Assembly (NCBI GenBank): GCA_951406725.2
Contig: OX597832.1
Location: 70,370,001-70,434,000 of the forward strand
Direction of reading: 5' to 3'
DNA: 64,000 bases
From: Octopus vulgaris
Lineage: Eukaryota
Below the pieces are notes generated by a model. It was not told the origin of the DNA, ran no database searches, and saw nothing but the letters and a program-made list of their open reading frames with translations. Shown here one piece after another: positions 9,642 through 57,475 of this stretch (within the stretch, counting starts at the first letter, position 1; each line of letters begins with the position of its first letter). A program made the position numbers and the translations under genes.

Positions 9642-11046
9642 GAATGGAGTTGAATGACGAATTAACAAAATTCCTTTATTTTCGACATATGTTTCGAAGG
9701 CTGCATATTCCTGATTGCGAAGGAATAAGGAGTATATTATGCCGCTTTCTCATCAGGAAAAGCAAGGAACTTATGTCAACATCAAGATGCACAAAAGACT
9801 TTTAGATGACTGCCCATAGCGATAATGAGTGTCTCTTTAAAAAATTCCTTTATAAGGAGTGACGTCAAAATGGTTGGATGTAGAAAATTCTAGAAGGTTC
9901 TGAAGGTTCAAGGGTTCAAACGAAGTAGGAGAAGAGCGGTATAAGAATAGGAAGGTGAAAGGGTGCAGTTCAAATGAATGGTGAATTTTCTTTTGTGAAT
10001 GAGTGTCTGTGTGTGTGACTGTATATAACTGCATTAATGTGTGTGTGTGTGTGTGTGTATGTGTGTGCGTGATTGTGTTTGTGGATGGGTGGATGTCAGA
10101 AAACAGACAGTGGTGAGGTGAACAGTTTATGTATGTTTGTTTGATTGTGCTTACTATAGATAGAGGGAAAGAGAGAGAGAAAGAGAGAGAAAGAGGAGGG
10201 CGACGTATAGAAACAAAGGTAACACATACCTCACTGGATTGGGTAGTAGTTCTTTGAAAGTATAAAAATAATTTTTTGACTATGGGGGTGAAATATATAA
10301 AAAAAGAGTTATTTTAATTAAAATTCAAGGGGCTAACTATATCAATCATTATTCATATGATTGAAAGGTGTGTTTTTGCCAGTGTATGCATCTGTAGGAC
10401 CTCTCGACGATTGTATTTATTAAAGGGACTTTGGCGAACAAAATATGAAAAAGTTCTGAATTACAGACGCCACAATGTTTTCTGCCCTTGTCAAACGGGA
10501 AGGACACCGACAATATGGACCATTCCAGTTTGAAAGTTGTATTGCTGTCCTTCAGACGCCAAACTAATTTACTTAGTCCCGTGCTGTGTTGTTTTCTCTT
10601 ATCTCTGAAAGTTGAATAATGGTTGGATATCCTTTGGGCTAATTTAGAAGAAGTTGCTCCGATGTAGAAGACGACATCGGTCCCCGAAGAAATTTTGCAC
10701 TGGTAAATTGTGCTTCTGATTTTGGAATTTTTGGATAGGAACTTTAATCTGATGGGGTTAACATCCGATACTAAGACAGAGTTTTTATTGTTATGATAGG
10801 TGTAAATATTGTTGCTAGCATTGACCACGATACTATTCATCTTATTATCATTACTATTAATTGTAATATCTTCGGCAATTTCTCTGACTATAGGAATGCT
10901 GGGACTGTTATCATCAATAATACAACTGTTATTAGAAATGTTATTATTATTACCACTAACACCACCACTGTTTATAATCCGGCTAATATTATTATCATTA
11001 TTACTATTGTTAACGCCAGTGCTGGTATGAATATCAGTACTGTTTA

Positions 11047-11081
<35 letters not shown>

Positions 11082-11679
11082 GTTAGGTTGGAATTGGTAA
11101 GGGCAGTGTCGCTACTCCTGGGTGATGAGTCCTTATTTATCAGCTTATTATTATGGGAGGCAATTATCTGCGATAGGTTTCTAGTGTTGGAAAACGCAAT
11201 CCTCACCTTATGCGAATTGATAGTAGAGAATTCCTGGGAAAGTTCCTAGCTACGGCTTCACGGAACTGTAAAGGGAGGTTAGACCTGATTTGTTTCCCGA
11301 AAGGAATAACAAACCAGATATAGTTTTTTGGGGACTTAGAATAGCTCAGATTGTTAACATTTACATTAAAGGGAGTATTTCTGTGTTGTAGAATTGGTGT
11401 TGGTTTTCGATTCCCTCCCCTGGTTCGTACATTATTTTTGTTAATTATATTAGTGTCGACGTTGTTAGGGCTGAAATCATTAATTACATTATTTCTATTG
11501 TTATTAGTTTTCTTATCCTGAGAGGCAAATATTAGTTTAGAATGGGCCGGGTCGATATATGATACCTTATCCCTATAACCGGCTTTTGACAGGGCGGTAT
11601 TATAAAATTCCACTTTTTGTTTTAAAATGTCGACATTCGCAGATAAATTTGATAGTCTTAAGGACATATTTTTAACTAG

Positions 11680-11682
<3 letters not shown>
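9638..11682 (-). mobile_element. 5'-truncated Penelope-like element: RT thumb, Asn-rich linker, GIY-YIG endonuclease and 3' region with hammerhead
   Basis: ORFs 11203-11682 (RLSNLSAN..FYNTALSKAGY..IWFVIPF) and 10349-11206 (IYQCKI..FYIGAT..RISNHYSTF..STGLSKLVW.LK..WSIL..CGVC..E). Frameshift near 11205. (TA)n on both sides. Confidence 0.85.
9679..9761 (-). ncRNA. Minimal type I hammerhead ribozyme, canonical core
   Basis: Minus strand: TTTTC-CTGATGA-GAAAGCGGCATA...TATGCAGCCTTC-GAAA-CATATG-TC-GAAAA. Helix III is palindromic (ACATATGT) and the cleavage triplet is GUC. Confidence 0.85.
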
Positions 11683-11752
<70 letters not shown>

Positions 11753-12242
11753 GTATATATATATATGTATTAATGTATGTATGTTTGTATGCATGTATGT
11801 ATGTATGTATTTATGTATGTATGTATGTATGTATGTATGTATGTATGTTTGTATGTATGTATGTATTGGTGGGTATTTATTTCTGGATTTTTGGGGGCAT
11901 TTGTAGTCATATATATATGTCTATGTGTCCAAATGCATAAGTATAAATACATATGAGATACAAAGATTGCTATAACAGTGGATGAAGGCATCTGCATGCT
12001 TAGGTTTTATTTTCGCATACAATAAAATGTGTACACGTGTGTTTACTTACTTTTGCGCATCCATATGTATGTGGTATAAATATGATTGATAATTCGAAAA
12101 TTTTTTCGGATTCATATTAAACTTCACTATATTCACAGGTGTATTTAATACTTATTTACGTAATATAGATAATTATAAAGCTGAGCAGAGATGTAAACGT
12201 GTACTTCCCACATTCCATTAGCAGTTATTTGTTAAGTTGTCT

Positions 12243-26481: not shown

Positions 26482-27983
26482 GTCCGTGCTGCATCTAAGA
26501 AAGTAACAGTTAGTTCGTCATATATATGTACGTATGTATGTGTGTATGTATGCATACATGTGTGTATGTATGTACGTATGCATGTACGTACATACGCCTG
26601 TGTATGCATGTATGTATGTATGTATGTATGTGTGTGTATATGCACGCACATACACTCTATAAAACATAAAGCTATAAACCTGTAGCGATGGATGGATGTA
26701 GAGTGACCACTCATCACAAAGCTATCAAATTTCAACTTCCTACGGCCGAAGCTAGAAAGTGATTTATGACGCTTACTCCCAAAACTATACCCTAAAATCT
26801 ATTATCAGATTTTTTATCTCTATATCACAGAACTATTGTTTTACTATTGTGCGTATGTATGTATGTATGTGCGTATGTATGTATGTATGTATGTATGTAT
26901 GTATGTATGTATGTATGTATGTATGTGTGTATGTATGTGTGTATGTACATACGTACGCATGTGCGTATGTATGTATACGCGCTCGTGTGCATGTGCCCAT
27001 GTATGTGTGTGCGTACATGTACGTGCGTATGTACGTGTGTATGCCCATACGTAGGTATGTATGTATGTTTGTATTCTTGTGCTACGTATGTATGTGAGTG
27101 TCTAGGAGAATGGTCAGATGTGTTTGTGAGAGTGTGTACATGTGTATGTGTATGTGAACGTATGTCCGTGTACTGGCATGTGTCCGTCCAAGTTGTGTAC
27201 ATGACTGTTACTTTGCTGAAGGTTGTATACATATTTACATATATGTTTGTATAGACGCACACACACATATATATGTGTGTGTGGGTGTGTGTTTGTTCCT
27301 CTCATCATCGTCTAACCGTGAATGGATACAACGCCTAGGTGCAACTGTTCGTATCAAACAACGTCTGCTCATACCGTTGTATATAACTGCACATACGCGT
27401 TGCAACCCGTATGTAAGGACTACAGGTAAAAGGGAGAGAGAGAGAGAGGGGTGGTTATAGAATAGTCCTTCTGAATGGGATCTGGATGTTATTCCATTCG
27501 GACTTTCGGTTGAGAGTAGGTTTGTATTCTTGTATACAAACAGCTTCTGTGACCTGTCTCAACATTGCATCGGTGGGGTGTGTTGATAGGATGTTCAACT
27601 TAAGCTCCCCTAAGGATCCCTTGTGGCAGTCTACAGCATGTTGGTAGAAGATGGAGTTTGGCTTCCTTTCAATGTAGTTGTCCAGGTGTTCTTTGAACCT
27701 ATCATTGATGCTTCTAGAGGTCTCACCTATGTATGACTCTGGGTTATGTTTTATAGAGTGTATGTGCGTGCATATACACACACATACATATATACATACA
27801 TACATACATACATACATACATACATACATACATACATACATACATACATACATACATGCATACACAGGCGTATGTGCGTACATGCATACGTACATACATA
27901 CACACATGTATGCATACATACACACATACATACGTACATATATATGACGAACTAACTGTTACTTTCTTAGATGCAGCACGGAC

Positions 27984-34425: not shown

Positions 34426-36490
34426 ACGTCTGTCTACATTCATAAAGATAATTATCATCGCCACCACTACCACCACCTCCACCACACAATCATGAGAATC
34501 TTTCTCTTAAAACAAATCATCTTTAGGTTTCAAAATATTTCATTTTTCAGGCCTCTCTTTCATATATCACCTTTTCTTCCTCGATCTCTCTCTTTTCCCC
34601 CTTCCTTCACGTTCTCTCTCTATAAGGACATTTGACACCTCCGCCGTCTCTCTTTCTTCTCCAACGCGTCGCTCAATGTATTTCTGTTTGTATCTATAAA
34701 GACGAAACGTGACAGCCGCAAAAGTTTAAATATTCTCACCACAGGTCTTTCAGAAAGGTGAATTATTATCTCCCACCACCACCGCACAATTATAACAGAT
34801 ATTATTTATCAGAAGATATGTTATTATTTTGCGACACATTACAAGAATAATGGGTGGAGCTACATTTCTCATGGCAGGAGATTTTCGACAAACTCTTCCT
34901 GTTGTCCGAAGAGGCACTCGAGCCGATGAGGTTAATGCATGTATAAAGCATTCTTATGTGTGGCACAGTGTAATCAGTCGTCATCTTGAAACTAACATGA
35001 GAGTCCACCTACGAAGTGATGTGGAGTCTGAGGCTTTCGCAAAACAGCTATTAGATCTTGGTGATGGAGTTTTGCCTTTGGTTGATGATGAGCATATTCG
35101 GTTGCCTTTTGGGATTTCGTTCCAAATGTAGAAGACCTTATAAGAGCCGTTTTACCTGACGTCGAAACCAACTTCCAGGATCTCGATTGGCTAAGGACGA
35201 GAGCTATTCTATCGCCTCATAATACAACAGCTGATGCTACTAATAAACAACTGCTTGATATGATTCCTGGTGAGGAAGTTTCTTTCATGTCCATCGATAC
35301 AAATAAAGATGAGAATGATGCACTCAACAAGCTAACACCTCCGGGGCTTCCACCTCATCATTTGTGTTTGAATGCTGGTGCTCCAATCATGGTGCTCAGA
35401 AACATGGAAACGCCTGAAATATGCAATGGAACCCAAATGGTTATAAGGAGGATTCAGAGTCATATTATAACTGCTGAAATTTTGAGTGGACCATTCGTAG
35501 GAAGAATGAAGATGATACATAAAATGATGTTCCCATTCAGTTTAAACGCTTTCAATTTCCGAAGAAACTATGTTTCACGATGACAATCAACAAGTCTCAG
35601 GGACAATCACTGGACATTGTAGGAGTTAATCTGTCACAACCGGTCTTCAGTCATGGTCAATTGTACGTAGCCTGTTCTCGTGTTGGAAATCCGCATAACT
35701 TCTTCATTCTTGGCAATCATGAGCGCACAAGGAACGTGGTTTATCAGGAGGCTCTGACAAAACAAGATTGATTGTAAGTCATGAGATTTTCCTTGAGTTT
35801 TTCTTCTGCACGTCTTGTTTATCTCTTCATTCTTGAAAATAAAGACATTAAAACGAACATGGTTCATAAAGAAGATTGGGTTAAGATGTTTGCAAACATT
35901 TGATCCAACTCATTCGTCTCTTTATTCCTCATTTTCCGATTCCTTCTACGTCTCCATTGAACGGCTTTGTCAAGTTATTGTTTCTTCGCCAACATAAGAC
36001 ATTCATAAAGTGAATGAGTTGTTAGTTACATTTTATACACTGTTCCATTGTTTAGGTGGTGTCGAAAGGACTGGCATGTGTCACCAAATAACCTCTGTCA
36101 GTCAAACTCCCAACTCATGCGTTCACGTTGCGATACTCTTTCTACAAAGATGAGCTGGGTGTGAATTCTAATTTCATACGCTATTGCAGATGTGAATTTA
36201 CATTCTGCCTTTTTTGGTTTAAACTATCTTCCTGCAGGTTAAAAAAAATTTGTTTTTTAGAGTCCTCGACAATATTCGCCACCGAAATTCCATTTTTCAA
36301 TTTTATGATTATACCTAAAGTGCTCTAATCGAATTTGAACTGTCTTCCCATTGACGGGCGTTTGTCTTTTGTTTTTTAGAAAAAAACGCATTGCCTCTTT
36401 CGTTTTAAAACAATAAAACTATGCTACATTAATAAATTGGTCCAACAACCAAAACATCACCCACGCGTAGAGCGGGTCACCTTAAGCTAC
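33966..36490 (+). mobile_element. Helitron derivative carrying a PIF1-like helicase C-terminal relic
   Basis: The 5' end matches the family. Relic motifs GDFRQTLPV, LETNMRV, PGLPPH.L.L..GAPIMVLRN, CNGT, MTINKSQGQSL, FSHGQLYVACSRV and TRNVVY (34829-35771). 3' end acccacgcgtagagcgggt-caccttaag-CTAC. Confidence 0.88.
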
Positions 36491-52919: not shown

Positions 52920-54630
52920 TTGGGAACACTTTCAAACCTGCCTTGCATTCGAACCGGAATCTCAAAAACATTGTTCCCTTCAGCACCAAGCTCAACTGCT
53001 CTATCCTGACATGGAAGGTATCAGCAATGAAATCTATAACAAAACACTCATTGACGTTGAAGACAGAATTGCTAAACTGGGTGGAAATGAATTGTCGACG
53101 TATGGCCTGCCACAGGGTCAAATAGCCTTTCCACTGCTGTCATTCGTGAAACAACTTACGACACTCAAGCGCTTTCAAAGTACATTGTTGAAAATGAGCC
53201 TAAATTACTTCCGGACCAGCTGCAGGCCTACAGAACTATTCTTAACAGTATACGCCAACGCGAGGGACGAATATTCTTCCTCGATGCTCCTGGTGGGACA
53301 GGAAAAACATTTATTACAAAGCTTCTCCTTGCAGAAGTTACGTAGCATCAGGACATTGCAGTAGCTGTAGCCTCCTCGGGCATTGCAGCTACTTTGTTAC
53401 CTGGTGGCAAGACAGCACACTCAACTTTTAAACTCCCTCTCAATTTAGCAGCATCCGAAATGCCTTCATGCAACATCAACAAAAGCTCAGATCAGGGACA
53501 AATACTTAAAATGTGTCACCTAGTTGTCTGGAATGAGTGCACTATGGCTCACAAGGGAGCTTTGGAAGCATTAGATAGAGCCCTGAAAGACATCCGAGAC
53601 TGTCAGGCTCCAATCGGAGGTTTAACGCTTCTGTTGTCAGGTGATTTCAGGCAAACTCTTCCTGTCATTCCGAAAGGCACTAGAGCTGATGAAGTTCAAG
53701 CATGCCTAAAGTCCTCTACCCTGTGGCATCATGTTACAATCTTTAGTCTCACCACTAACATGAGAGCTCAGCTACACGACGACAAAATGTCCACAAAGTT
53801 TGCACATGACATTATGACACTTGGTGAAGACAAGATGCCTCTCGATGCTGCAGGACAAATGGAAGTGTGGTCATTTTCCTCTGTTGTTAATTCTGTAGAT
53901 GACCTCAAAAACAAAGTCTTTCCCAACTTAACACAAAACTACCAAAATCACAATTGGCTGTGTGAAAGAGCAATATTAGCTCCAAAAAACGTCGCTGTTA
54001 ACAAAATTAATCAACAGCTAATGCATTCTCTTCCGGGCACTATACACACTTACAAGTCTGTTGATACAATTCCAGATATAAACGAAGTTGTGAACTATCC
54101 TCCTGAATTTCTCAATTCACTGGAGCCTCCTGGACTACCTCCACACATATTACCACTTAAAGTTGGAACTCCTGTAATGCTACTCCGCAATCTGGAACCA
54201 CCAATACTTTGCAATGGAACACGACTGGTGATAAAGAAAATGATGTCACACGTTATCGAGGCGATCATTCTTTCTGGATGTGGAAAAGTTGATGACGTCT
54301 TTATTCCAAGATTTCCTCTTACTCCATCAGGAGGAGAAATTCCATTACATTCAGAAGACTGCAATTCCCCCTTCGTGTCAGCTTTGCCATGTCCATTAAT
54401 AAATCTCAGGGTCAAACCCTCTCTGTAGCTGGTCTTCTCTTGGAAGAGCCCTGCTTCTCGCATAGGCAACTGTATGTTGGCTGCTCAAGAGTAGGAACCA
54501 AAAGAAACCTTTTTGTATATGCTCCACAAGGAAAAACGAGGAACATTGTTTACAACGAGGTGTTATAATCTCAACAGCCAGGAGGTATATACATAATCCC
54601 CTTTTTTTTAACAAACTTCATGTACTTTCA
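52920..54630 (+). mobile_element. Helitron RepHel PIF1-like helicase relic (frameshifted)
   Basis: Walker A FLDAPGGTGKTF (~53275), AVASSGIAATLLPGGKTAHSTFKLP, WNECTM, GDFRQTLPV, RAILAPKN, EFLNSL.PPGLPPH, LCNGTRL, AMSINKSQGQTL, FSH.QLYV..SRV and TRNIVY. Confidence 0.92.
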
Positions 54631-54679
54631 TGTATTTATATTAATATACATATATTTGTGTGTGTGTGTGTGTGTGTAT

Positions 54680-54710
<31 letters not shown>

Positions 54711-54717
<7 letters not shown>

Positions 54718-54775
54718 CAGAAAAGTCTAATTCTTCTATTGAATCTAACCGGGCAACGCCGGGTATCTCTACTAG
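54711..54775 (+). mobile_element. Helitron 3' terminus
   Basis: ACCGGGCAACGCCGGGT-atctcta-CTAG^T: hairpin followed by CTAG. Confidence 0.65.
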
Positions 54776-54789
54776 TATATATATATATA

Positions 54790-56282
54790 TTTACTTCCTG
54801 TCCCAGGTAGACATATTCCCTCACCTCCTCTATTTCATCACTGCCGATCACCATTCGACCTGTTGGTACATTGTCTGACCGCATGAACTTTATTTTCATG
54901 CGGTTCATCTTGAGACCTACTGCAGAACTTTTGATGTCGAGCTCCGTCAGCATGGTCTGAAGCTGATCCATGTATTCAGCGATGAGTACGATGTCGTCAG
55001 CGAAACGGAGGTGAGTGAGGAGCTCGCCATTGATGTTGACACCACATTGCCAGTCGATGCCCCTGATGATCTGTTCGAGACATGCAGTGAAAAGTTTTGG
55101 GGAGATTGTATCCCCTTGCTTCACTCCCTTCTCAACCGGCACTCGTATGGGTGATGGCAGTAGAGCTATGTCGGTGGTGCATCCGGAATTTGCCTCTCTG
55201 AACAGCTGCACATATTGCGCTTCGATTCCTTGCCTCTGCATCGAGTTCAGCACTGCTTTGGTTTCGACGCTATCGAAGGCCTTCTCATAATCTATAAACG
55301 CAACGCAAAGAGGCAGCTTGTACTCATTTGCTCGCTCAAGCAGTTGCGTTAGAGTAAATATATGGTCCATTGTGCTGTAGTTCTCCCGGAAACCTGCTTG
55401 TTCCCTCGGTAGTTGTTCGTCGAGACGACGTGACAACCTGTTCAGAATTATCTTTGTGAACAGCTTGTACACGTGAGACAGCAGGCATATGGGTCGGTAG
55501 TTTTTAGATCTTCTCTGTCGCCCTTCTTATACAGCAGGATGGTATTTGAATCTTTCCACTGCGAGGGAATTCTTCCCTCGTCTAGATAGTGCGTAAATCG
55601 CTCAGCGAGGATTTTCCAGAGCTACTCTCTGCCTGACTTTAGCACCTCCGATGTTATACCGTCTTTCCCTGGAGCCTTTCCGTTTTTCATCGAGCCGATG
55701 GCTCTTTCAACCTCACTGATAAGGATATCAAAAAGGAGATCTCACGGAGAGTAAGGGCTGGATGGAAGGCGTTCAATGGCATAAGGGATGTGCCCAAGGG
55801 AAGGTTGGACACGACCACCCGCTCCAACCTCATTAACAGTGCAGTTCTGCCTGCAATGTTATATGGTAGTGAAACATGGGCTACTACAAAGAGAGAAAAT
55901 CAAAGACTGGTAACGGCTCAAAGAGCCATGGAAAGGTCAATGCTTGGTATCTCGTTGAGAGAGCACATAAGTAGCAAGCTGAGAGAGCACATAAGTTCGG
56001 CGTGAGAGATGTCATCGCAGAGTATACACGCAGCAAGTATAGATGGGCTGGACACGTCGCCCGGCTCACCGATAATCGGTGGACGCACGCAATTGTCGAG
56101 TTGTACCCGCGTGAGCGGAAAAGACCACCCGGAAGACCTCCACGACGGTGGAGTTACGATTTCAGGAGGACGATTGGGATCACGTGGATGAGAAAGGCGC
56201 GATCCAGAGAGGAGTGGACAGCGTGCTGTGACCAGCGGTGTCAAATGGACGCCTGACGGACTGGTCGGTCAAGGTGATCAGG

Positions 56283-56288
<6 letters not shown>
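54790..56288. mobile_element. RTE (BovB-like) LINE copy with an inverted 5' segment
   Basis: Minus 54790-55726: KAPGKDGI, EQAGFR, FIDYEKAFDSV, GVKQGDTISPKLF, LRFADDIVL, YVYLGQ. Plus 55723-56288: DIKKEISRRVRAGWKAF, LYGSETW, WAGHVAR, RPPGRPPRRW, ending in the 9-bp repeated tail caaggtgat-cagggtgat. Lies in (TA)n. Confidence 0.9.
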
Positions 56289-56417: not shown

Positions 56418-56549
56418 CTATATATATATATAGATATGGGTCGAATGGCCTATTGAGGCCGTTCCTCAATTGTTGTTGAAAGTATATATATATATATATA
56501 TATATATTGTGTGTGTGTGTGTATATATATGTATATATATGTATATATG

Positions 56550-56597
<48 letters not shown>

Positions 56598-56612
56598 TAC
56601 ATACATATATAC

Positions 56613-56685
<73 letters not shown>

Positions 56686-56695
56686 TATATATACT

Positions 56696-57475
56696 TTCAA
56701 CAACAATTGAGGAACGGCCTCAATAGGCCATTCGACCCACTAGAAAGAGCAGCCAGGACTCAAACCGCCAGGAATAGGGTAAATGTTTTTAATTTTCCTT
56801 TAATTTCTGAATTACTACTACTTGGCGGTTTGAGTCCTGGCTGCTCTTTCTAGTGGGTCGAATGGCCTATTGAGGCCGTTCCTCAATTGTTGTTGAATTT
56901 ATATATACAGTCTCTGACTATTTTCTCTTTTTCACTAGACCGCTGGTGGCGAAAACATTTCTATTTAATTTTTTGCTACCCTATATTGATTAATTGATGA
57001 TTTTCTGACTAATTCTGAAATTGAATCAGCAGTTAATATTAGCTGCTGATAAGTTTGGCGCGATTACGGTGGGTTTGAAAATTTTAGGGCAGATATTCCC
57101 GGGGCATAGAAACTGCCTCCTCGTGTATATCTGTCTCTCCTGGCTTCTTTACCGATGAGACGTAGCCTTTGGTAGATTGACTTAAGTTTAATTTAATTTA
57201 ATTAGGCTGGTTTGCCATTAAAAACGTCGAAACAATGCATTGTCTAAAGATGAATAGGGTAAATGTTTTTTTAATTTTCCTTTAATTTCTGAATTACTAC
57301 TACTTGGCGGTTTGAGTCCTGGCTGCTCTTTCTCGTGGGTCGAATGGCCTATTGAGGCCGTTCCTCAATTGTTGTTGAATTTATATATATAGTCTCTGAC
57401 TATTTTCTCTTTCTTAGTAGACCGCTGGTGGCGAAAAATTTTCTATTGAATTTTTTGCTACCCTATATTGATTAA
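56696..57475 (+). mobile_element. ORF-less PLE-like/retrozyme-like element with direct repeats and an inverted 5' piece
   Basis: Direct repeats at 56772-56993 and 57252-57475. 56696-56770 is the reverse complement of 56823-56897. An additional short copy lies at 56438-56480. (TA)n flanks. Confidence 0.75.
57146..57250 (+). ncRNA. Type I hammerhead ribozyme motif, CCGAUGA core
   Basis: TCTTTA-CCGATGA-GACGT...ACGTC-GAAA-CAATGCATTG-TC-TAAAGA. Helix I is a perfect 6 bp, helix II is 5 bp, helix III is a 12-nt palindrome, and the triplet is GUC. Confidence 0.85.

What the first reader, a model, noticed from the sequence alone, without database searches (positions are those of the whole stretch)
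56438..57475. ORF-less 480-bp-period element combining a ribozyme, direct repeats, an inverted 5' copy and an intron-like segment
Seen: ~220 bp direct repeats (56772-56993 and 57252-57475) with a well-formed hammerhead (57146-57250) immediately upstream of the second repeat. The first repeat starts about 7 nt downstream of the equivalent GUC cleavage site, and a 75-bp inverted copy (56696-56770) is joined to it. Each repeat contains GG|GTAAAT ... CTGAC-polypyrimidine-TAG|AC (56779-56938; 57259-57420), which looks like a donor, branch point and acceptor. Known: PLEs make partial-tandem and inverted pLTR insertions and can retain introns. Inference: this is a minimal non-autonomous element whose RNA 5' end is set by self-cleavage of a multimeric or circular RNA and which keeps an unspliced intron.
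Basis: partly seen in the sequence, partly recalled or inferred. Interest (0 to 1): 0.72.

Follow-up and report, generated by a model that had tools for sequence, protein, structure and literature searches.

The report
Two-armed hammerhead retrozyme, unspliced intron mimic
This is one copy of a common non-coding jumping repeat with a predicted self-cutting RNA motif (a known class, retrozymes), likely pasted in by Penelope-type transposon enzymes; its intron-like stretch was never found spliced out and overlaps one of the two fixed points where copying likely starts.

Summary
The element is one insertion of a multi-copy family of ORF-less 474-492-bp units (599 exact junction matches genome-wide). 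Each unit carries a type I hammerhead with covarying stems; the window copy has a U4C core. Copies sit in (TA)n and end at two fixed 3' sites: A, inside the intron-like stretch, and B, about 95 nt further on. Of 100 two-armed insertions, 89 pair A with B and none pair A-A or B-B. A coding Hydra-type Penelope element in this genome follows the same rule (27 of 34), but no coding partner shares sequence with the unit. 5' ends are only 2-3-fold enriched at the cleavage site, so cleavage sets a minority of boundaries. The splice-like motifs are conserved, yet there are 0 spliced genomic copies and no splice joint in 7 putative RNA contig sets; the acceptor and branch-like motifs lie in conserved predicted helices. 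Verdict: a new member of the metazoan non-LTR retrozymes with the known Penelope footprint. This scan has already reported the two-start, two-arm footprint for other repeats of this genome. Use as an intron is unsupported.

The parts
56772..57475 (+). Direct arm of the insertion: 704 nt, about 1.5 units of the 480-nt monomer, 5' end 7 nt after the position equivalent to the cleavage site, 3' end at fixed site B followed by (TA)n
   Evidence: B-end junctions
56696..56770 (-). Inverted arm (75 nt), identical to 56823-56897, 3' end at fixed site A, joined head to head to the direct arm through one extra G at 56771
   Evidence: sequence
56772..56993 (+). First copy of the terminal redundancy (pLTR-like direct repeat 1)
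   Evidence: 95.5% to repeat 2
57252..57475 (+). Second copy of the terminal redundancy (direct repeat 2)
57146..57250 (+). Type I hammerhead motif: U4C core, long stem II insert, palindromic 4-bp stem III; predicted cleavage after 57244
   Evidence: 6 of 15 pairs change on both sides; 28 cells, 0 of 500 shuffles as high
56779..56938 (+). Intron-like GT-AG segment, copy 1; contains site A; acceptor and branch-like motif lie in conserved predicted helices; never found removed
57259..57420 (+). Intron-like GT-AG segment, copy 2
56896..56907 (+). Site A: AU-rich, predicted unpaired (0.87) stretch where 118 of 268 resolved arm ends fall; inferred reverse-transcription start
57465..57475 (+). Site B (equivalent 56984-56994 in copy 1): end of 132 of 268 resolved arm ends (sample partly picked by this end); inferred second start
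56437..56487 (+). Echo fragment: exact inverted duplicate of the A-arm end and its junction, across the (TA)n tract
56488..56693 (.). (TA)n microsatellite target left of the insertion (a short TA run also follows 57475)

Best explanation
The segment is one insertion of a multi-copy, non-coding 474-492-bp tandem repeat with a covarying hammerhead motif (a non-LTR retrozyme), likely copied into a (TA)n tract by the enzymes of a Penelope-like element that prime on both cut DNA strands at two fixed sites of one RNA. Shown here: the family, tandem arrays, (TA)n targets, the two fixed 3' ends, the A+B pairing, and a modest excess of 5' ends at the cleavage site. Inferred: (1) arrays are transcribed and partly self-cleave (about 0.7); (2) a Penelope RT/GIY-YIG complex nicks both strands of (TA)n and primes once at A and once at B on the same RNA (about 0.7); (3) A is usually primed first, leaving only B free, which would explain why A-A and B-B pairs are missing and single arms are mostly A (about 0.5); (4) more-than-unit arms come from a circle or an uncleaved multimer (circle about 0.55); (5) the intron-like stretch is kept because it is the folded domain that carries site A, and it is not normally spliced (about 0.65).
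For: Copy number: 1887 first-look candidates and 599 exact junction matches, 0 in the reversed control. Arrays of period 474-492. Hammerhead stems covary across 21 distinct copies. In 156 independent loci, resolved 3' ends are 118 A, 132 B and 18 other. The 100 head-to-head pairs are 89 A+B, 0 A+A, 0 B+B, 9 B+other and 2 cut by the locus edge. In the 74 loci not picked by their B end: 34 A+B and 3 B+other (p=6e-11 against 50:50), with single arms 26 A, 8 B, 1 other. The two arms are nearly always of one subfamily: median distance 1.6% against 11.6% for random pairs; 49 of 72 are under 3% against 14% of random pairs. An intact 899-aa Hydra-type Penelope element (RWL, DKT, YRDD motifs) shows the same rule: 27 A+B, 1 A+A, 2 B+other, 4 edge of 34. 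A second young coding family also has two fixed ends, at +37 and about +107. Two internal start sites behind the Penelope 'tail' were shown in vitro (PMC11167929), and inverted 5' copies, one-sided tails and (TA)n targets are known Penelope marks (PMC8557442, PMC3846280). The acceptor lies in a continuous paired strand and the branch-like motif in a hairpin, with 94% of cells paired in 29 distinct copies.
Against: No coding partner was identified: the unit has no significant similarity to either Hydra-type family tested (p=0.16; p=0.26-0.63). The tail (about 95 nt) is longer than the published 30-40 nt. The U4C core (28 of 74 distinct hammerheads) is reported to lower activity in vitro (PMC3088659), and 8 of 9 Xenopus retrozyme dimers did not cleave (bioRxiv 2026.07.22.740005). 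Only 9 locus-private variants are shared by both arms against 104 unshared, and arms are no closer to each other than to the nearest other locus (30 closer, 3 equal, of 72), so one source locus is not separated from one RNA molecule. Covariation in the 5' domain is weak (3 of 36 pairs change on both sides). The donor (0.56 unpaired) and the pyrimidine tract (0.80 unpaired) are conserved without a clear helix, which leaves room for a splicing-related constraint.
Confidence: 0.85

Rival explanations
1. The GT-AG segment is a real spliceosomal intron inherited from the 5' UTR of an ancestral Penelope element. It is spliced in some transcripts, but spliced RNA loses site A and the folded recognition domain and so is never retrotransposed.
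For: Donor GT is kept in 155 of 161 and acceptor AG in 163 of 170 distinct copies, including sister subfamilies at 78% identity. Donor GGTAAA, TGA of the branch motif and the acceptor G are invariant in 29 copies. The motif set is rare in shuffles (0.65%, post hoc). 5'-UTR introns in the terminal repeat are known in Penelope and Chlamys-3, where the intron spans the repeat boundary (PMC8557442).
Against: There are 0 spliced copies, although site B would survive splicing. No joint appears in 7 putative RNA contig sets, and several contigs cross the donor unspliced. 35% of all columns are invariant, so invariance alone is weak. After self-cleavage the upstream exon would be 14 nt and uncapped. 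No conserved reading frame follows the acceptor. The second Hydra-type family shows no pyrimidine-tract/AG motif in its 5' region.
Confidence: 0.2
2. The copies are terminal-repeat fragments of a long coding Penelope element with random 5' truncation, not an independent non-autonomous family.
For: The footprint is identical to that of coding Penelope elements. Vertebrate retrozymes often match Penelope terminal repeats (24 of 57 Xenopus families homologous to transposons, nearly all Penelope-like; bioRxiv 2026.07.22.740005). Only part of the family was inspected (176 loci).
Against: Pure head-to-tail arrays of the unit exist with no ORF. None of 62 free 5' flanks and none of 18 non-A/B 3' flanks leads into shared foreign sequence. 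Coding elements found beside copies (L061, L254) are separate insertions with different terminal repeats.
Confidence: 0.05
3. Arrays and inverted arms arise mainly at the DNA level (unequal crossover, fold-back in self-complementary (TA)n) after monomer insertions, so the structure says little about the RNA template.
For: The echo fragment 56437-56487 is an exact copy of an arm end with its junction, which shows that such DNA-level copying happens. Li et al. favour local amplification for vertebrate arrays.
Against: Fold-back would duplicate the same end (A+A or B+B), which was seen in 0 of 100 head-to-head pairs. Arrays are dispersed, young (units under 1% apart in several) and end exactly at A or B.
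Confidence: 0.08

Closest known systems
Metazoan non-LTR retrozymes (Cervera and de la Pena 2020, PMC7229834; Li, Clavereau and Pollet 2026, bioRxiv 10.64898/2026.07.22.740005)
   Same: Non-coding tandem units, each with a type I hammerhead; dispersed monomers and multimers; co-occurrence with Penelope-like elements, the proposed mobilisers.
   Different: Unit of 474-492 nt (published circles about 170-400 nt; consensus range 51-972). U4C core in part of the family. Two fixed 3' ends, head-to-head arms and an intron-like stretch are not described in the passages I read. Cleavage and circles are untested here.
EN+ Penelope-like elements, especially the Hydra clade (Craig et al. 2021, PMC8557442; Arkhipova et al. 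2013, PMC3846280)
   Same: Partial tandems, inverted 5'-truncated copy, tail at only one end, hammerhead in the terminal repeat, (TA)n targets.
   Different: No RT or GIY-YIG frame; tail about 95 nt instead of 30-40; no sequence similarity to the two coding Hydra-type families examined.
PAc (Anolis Poseidon) internal initiation in vitro (Frangieh et al. 2024, PMC11167929)
   Same: Two internal start sites define the tail; both DNA strands are cut and extended; uncleaved RNA can be the template.
   Different: In vitro both strands used either site, whereas here two-armed insertions use one of each. Here site A resembles the TA target; the PAc start did not resemble its target. PAc RNA-seq showed no ends at the ribozyme site, whereas here genomic 5' ends are modestly enriched there.
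5'-UTR introns of D. virilis Penelope and Chlamys-3_cRei; non-autonomous Chlamys such as MRC1 (as described in PMC8557442, PMC4209133)
   Same: Intron-like segment within the terminal repeat; in Chlamys-3 the repeat boundary lies inside the intron; non-autonomous head-to-tail multimers.
   Different: Those introns are shown to be spliced and precede an ORF. Here there is no ORF and no spliced form, and the hammerhead lies upstream of the segment, whereas in Penelope it abuts the intron's 3' end.

Membership tests
Metazoan non-LTR retrozyme | Short non-coding unit in tandem and dispersed copies | tested here: met
   No frame of 50 codons; arrays of period 474-492, about 7 units in L099 and L240
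Metazoan non-LTR retrozyme | Type I hammerhead in each unit | tested here: met
   Three stems with covariation in 21 distinct copies; cores CUGAUGA 37, CCGAUGA 26, other 6, unreadable 5 of 74; no Rfam hit
Metazoan non-LTR retrozyme | [quoted passage not shown] | tested here: met
   Met by the family (e.g. L061, L099, L240); the window copy itself has only one hammerhead
Metazoan non-LTR retrozyme | Self-cleavage of the RNA | not testable with these tools
   Indirect only: 5' ends enriched 1.8-3.2-fold at the site
Metazoan non-LTR retrozyme | Expressed as monomeric circular RNA | tested here: inconclusive
   Contigs of runs guessed to be RNA cover the unit and bridge the unit junction, but the same junction exists in DNA; contigs only
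EN+ Penelope-like element (autonomous) | Single ORF with telomerase-like RT and GIY-YIG endonuclease | tested here: not met
   No ORF in the unit; no shared or coding flank
EN+ Penelope-like insertion footprint | Partial tandem, inverted 5' copy, tail at one end, (TA)n target | tested here: met
Non-autonomous derivative of a coding Penelope element | Sequence homology to the terminal repeat of a coding family | tested here: inconclusive
   Not found for two Hydra-type families; other families among over 16,000 first-look candidates were not examined
Spliceosomal intron | GT donor, branch motif, pyrimidine tract, AG acceptor | tested here: met
   (donor has A, not G, at +5)
Spliceosomal intron | Removed from the RNA | tested here: inconclusive
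   No joint in 7 putative RNA contig sets plus one unlabelled set, and 0 spliced retrocopies; contigs drop rare forms

The most novel reading that the evidence does not exclude
The segment is a genuine Penelope-derived intron that contains the first of the two reverse-transcription start sites, so splicing destroys the template. That would give a simple reason why Penelope-like elements keep their 5' introns, visible here in a 480-nt non-coding RNA that a dimeric enzyme copies from both DNA strands in the fixed order A then B.
Probability: 0.2. Interest if true: 0.62.

Novelty: new member of a known kind. Interest (0 to 1): 0.36.

Why it matters
The class is known and each architectural mark is published for Penelope-like elements, so the element itself is ordinary. 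Its value is as a small test substrate. The strict one-A, one-B rule (89 to 0) and its repeat in a coding Hydra-type element constrain how the Penelope enzyme uses its two start sites, which the in vitro study did not resolve. The position of site A inside an intron-like stretch turns the open question of why Penelope elements retain introns (called unknown in PMC8557442) into a minigene experiment.

Tried and rejected
Rfam at gathering score and at E<=10: no hammerhead, only microsatellite-driven and other weak hits below gathering score. Spliced-junction patterns: one search was too narrow, one search missed the subfamily whose second exon begins with G, and one search covers both; all gave 0. 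Run search: no RNA holder listed on record, which is no evidence on expression. The idea that the donor is held by a 7-bp long-range helix with the sequence before site B: 97.5% paired but no covariation, and it competes with a stronger local hairpin; not adopted. Coding elements next to copies (L061, L254) were checked as partners and are separate insertions. A short motif shared by the unit and both Hydra-type terminal repeats is not significant. Pfam does not recognise the Hydra-type proteins; clade assignment rests on motifs described in PMC8557442. The test of one RNA molecule against one source locus was not decisive. Paper searches for an octopus Penelope hammerhead element, or a retrozyme with intron or twin priming, listed nothing specific (listings only). 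Sequence look-ups in earlier scan findings were blank. Overlapping loci of one insertion were dropped before counting (156 independent loci kept); the output was cut in the middle.

Full report
1. Observation. Every coordinate holds. The direct repeats 56772-56993 and 57252-57475 align at 95.5% and are 480 nt apart. The reverse complement of 56696-56770 is identical to 56823-56897. A type I hammerhead occupies 57146-57250, with predicted cleavage after the GUC at 57244, 7 nt before repeat 2. Its core is CCGAUGA (U4C), a variant that lowers activity in vitro but can work in vivo (PMC3088659, passages). Rfam does not detect it. The GT-AG segments are 160 and 162 nt, and no frame reaches 50 codons. 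A further piece, 56437-56487, is an exact inverted duplicate of the inverted arm's end. The whole lies in (TA)n at the end of a LINE fragment.

2. It is one copy of a large family. The window lies in a 2.8-Gb, 227-contig assembly. Earlier scan notes call it octopus or cephalopod; I did not check this. The 704-nt query gave 1887 first-look candidates, and the cleavage-to-donor junction matches exactly 599 times, with 0 in the reversed control. A motif at the acceptor matches 2566 times, because sister subfamilies of 483-492 nt share it (78% identical to the window unit). Arrays reach about 7 units (L099, L240). All three hammerhead stems are maintained: in 21 distinct copies, 6 of 15 pairs change on both sides, and none of 500 shuffles reaches the observed 28 cells (the tool warns that relatedness inflates this). 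Of 74 distinct hammerheads, 37 have CUGAUGA, 26 CCGAUGA, 6 other variants and 5 were unreadable.

3. Two fixed 3' ends, one per arm. I mapped 156 independent loci: 74 picked by similarity or by the junction, the rest by the B end. Arm 3' ends fall at site A (unit positions about 118-140; 118 ends), site B (about 223; 132 ends) or elsewhere (18), and 2 were cut by the locus edge. A and B ends run into (TA)n. Of 100 head-to-head pairs, 89 are A+B, 9 B+other and 2 unresolved; none is A+A or B+B. In the 74 loci not picked by B the count is 34 A+B and 3 B+other (p=6e-11 against 50:50), and single arms are 26 A, 8 B, 1 other. The window copy fits: the inverted arm ends at A and the direct arm at B. 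The two arms nearly always come from one subfamily (median 1.6% apart against 11.6% for random pairs), but they are no closer than the nearest other locus, and only 9 private variants are shared against 104 unshared. One molecule is therefore not proven.

4. This is the Penelope footprint. Partial tandems, an inverted 5' copy, a 30-40-nt tail at only one end and (TA)n targets are described for Penelope-like elements (PMC8557442: passages and sections 10, 11, 15; PMC3846280: passages). The tail reflects two internal start sites of reverse transcription (PMC11167929, parts 1-2 of 4). This genome holds at least two young coding families with the Hydra-clade motifs named in that paper. One has an 899-aa frame with RWL and DKT and a period of 3624; the other has a 727-aa frame with RWK, DKT and CxCx5C. 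The first has ends about 60 and 220 nt after its own ribozyme, and its 34 two-armed copies are 27 A+B, 1 A+A, 2 B+other and 4 unresolved. The second has ends at +37 and about +107. Neither shares significant sequence with the unit, so the mobiliser is not identified. The unit is not the end of a coding element: none of 62 free 5' flanks (61 distinct) is shared, and coding elements beside copies are separate insertions.

5. Does cleavage set the 5' end? Partly. Among 151 arms from loci picked by the B end, stops in the 40 nt from 5 before to 34 after the cleavage site are 31 of 270 at risk (0.115). That compares with 56 of 819 in the 100 nt downstream (p=0.02) and 20 of 513 in the 100 nt upstream (p=1e-4). 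Only 24 of 95 arms that reach the first site stop near it; 45 of 151 exceed one unit and 14 exceed two. Most templates therefore extend through the site, as a circle or an uncleaved multimer would, and a minority look like cleaved linear RNA. Stalling at local structure could add to the excess.

6. Is it an intron? The motifs are real and conserved: GT in 155 of 161 and AG in 163 of 170 distinct copies, and a post hoc pattern occurs in 0.65% of shuffles. But nothing shows use. Spliced junctions number 0 in the genome against 599 and 2566 unspliced matches. Seven contig sets guessed to be RNA and one unlabelled set show no joint, and several contigs cross the donor, one crossing both sites; contigs can lose rare forms. 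The alignment fold of 29 distinct copies places the acceptor in the middle of a 14-nt paired strand and the branch-like motif in the 3' side of a hairpin whose loop varies (94% of cells paired, though only 3 of 36 pairs change on both sides). The donor and the pyrimidine tract are less well explained by structure. Site A lies inside the segment, in a predicted unpaired AU-rich stretch that resembles the target, so a spliced RNA could not give A-primed or two-armed copies. In Chlamys-3 the terminal-repeat boundary also lies inside a proven intron. I put the chance that the segment is a used intron at about 0.2.

7. Mechanism. Shown: the anatomy and counts above. Inferred: multimeric transcripts are partly cleaved and probably circularised, as for other retrozymes (PMC7229834, passages and Discussion). 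A Penelope enzyme nicks both strands of (TA)n. One end primes at A; with A now in an RNA-DNA hybrid, only B remains free for the other end. Synthesis proceeds with displacement, and the two cDNAs are joined head to head. Priming first at B would cover A and give single B arms. This order fits the missing A+A and B+B pairs and the excess of single A arms (26 to 8, p=0.003), but it is untested.

8. Comparison and novelty. By unit type, ribozyme and arrays it is a non-LTR retrozyme; cleavage and circles could not be tested. That such repeats are non-autonomous Penelope derivatives is argued in bioRxiv 10.64898/2026.07.22.740005 (parts 1-3 of 5 read; supplements not seen and may list related families). 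Hammerheads in Penelope terminal repeats and a circular-template model are in PMC4209133 (passages). Searches listed no paper on this family or on a strict one-of-each rule. I saw only listings for most hits, and the original tail papers were not available. I reached the A+B rule, before reading earlier scan notes; those notes report the same footprint for 359-505-nt repeats of this genome, some probably sister subfamilies (not verified). They are not independent evidence.

9. Verdict. Observation confirmed; interpretation partly supported. New member of a known kind. Interest 0.36; if the intron is real and gates reverse transcription (probability 0.2), about 0.62.

Noticed in passing
window 56437-56487; also L184, L189: Same-end fragments facing an arm tail to tail across the (TA)n tract. 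In the window the fragment copies the arm end with its non-templated junction letters, suggesting fold-back copying in the microsatellite.
   Followed up: partly
L221 (G000:C1:119513500-119523400, minus strand): Young tandem Hydra-type Penelope element with an intact 899-aa frame, period 3624, its own hammerhead and an unusually long tail of about 160 nt; several short arms begin at its cleavage site.
   Followed up: yes
L254 1-2095 and L259-L318: Second, nearly invariant Hydra-type family (727-aa frame, many copies 99-100% identical) with a long 3' UTR, a compact hammerhead and ends at +37 and about +107.
   Followed up: partly
window 9645-11769, minus strand: 5'-truncated Hydra-type Penelope element with an Asn-rich stretch and a hammerhead motif near 9680-9760, in (TA)n.
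   Followed up: partly
window 54639-56285: LINE fragment (RVT_1, E 7e-34) whose 5' part is inverted relative to its 3' part; the retrozyme sits in the TA tract at its 3' end. Calling it RTE-type is recalled, not tested.
   Followed up: no
window 27458-27958, minus strand: GIY-YIG fragment (Pfam E 7e-4, below cut-off) of another Penelope-like family.
   Followed up: no
contigs of runs X1, X3-X7 laid on 57140-57475: One divergent variant resembling L028 recurs in putative RNA contigs but has zero depth at several of its positions in X10, and in X4 and X6 it runs into a TA flank, suggesting a copy read through in a host transcript.
   Followed up: no
window 35092-35580 and 53346-54425: Frames that look like PIF1/Helitron helicase fragments (recalled resemblance, not scanned).
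   Followed up: no
L061 4790 and L066 3286: Internal same-strand jumps within an arm (unit position 335 joined to 198) and arm junctions at a short palindromic motif near position 186, suggesting template switching.
   Followed up: no
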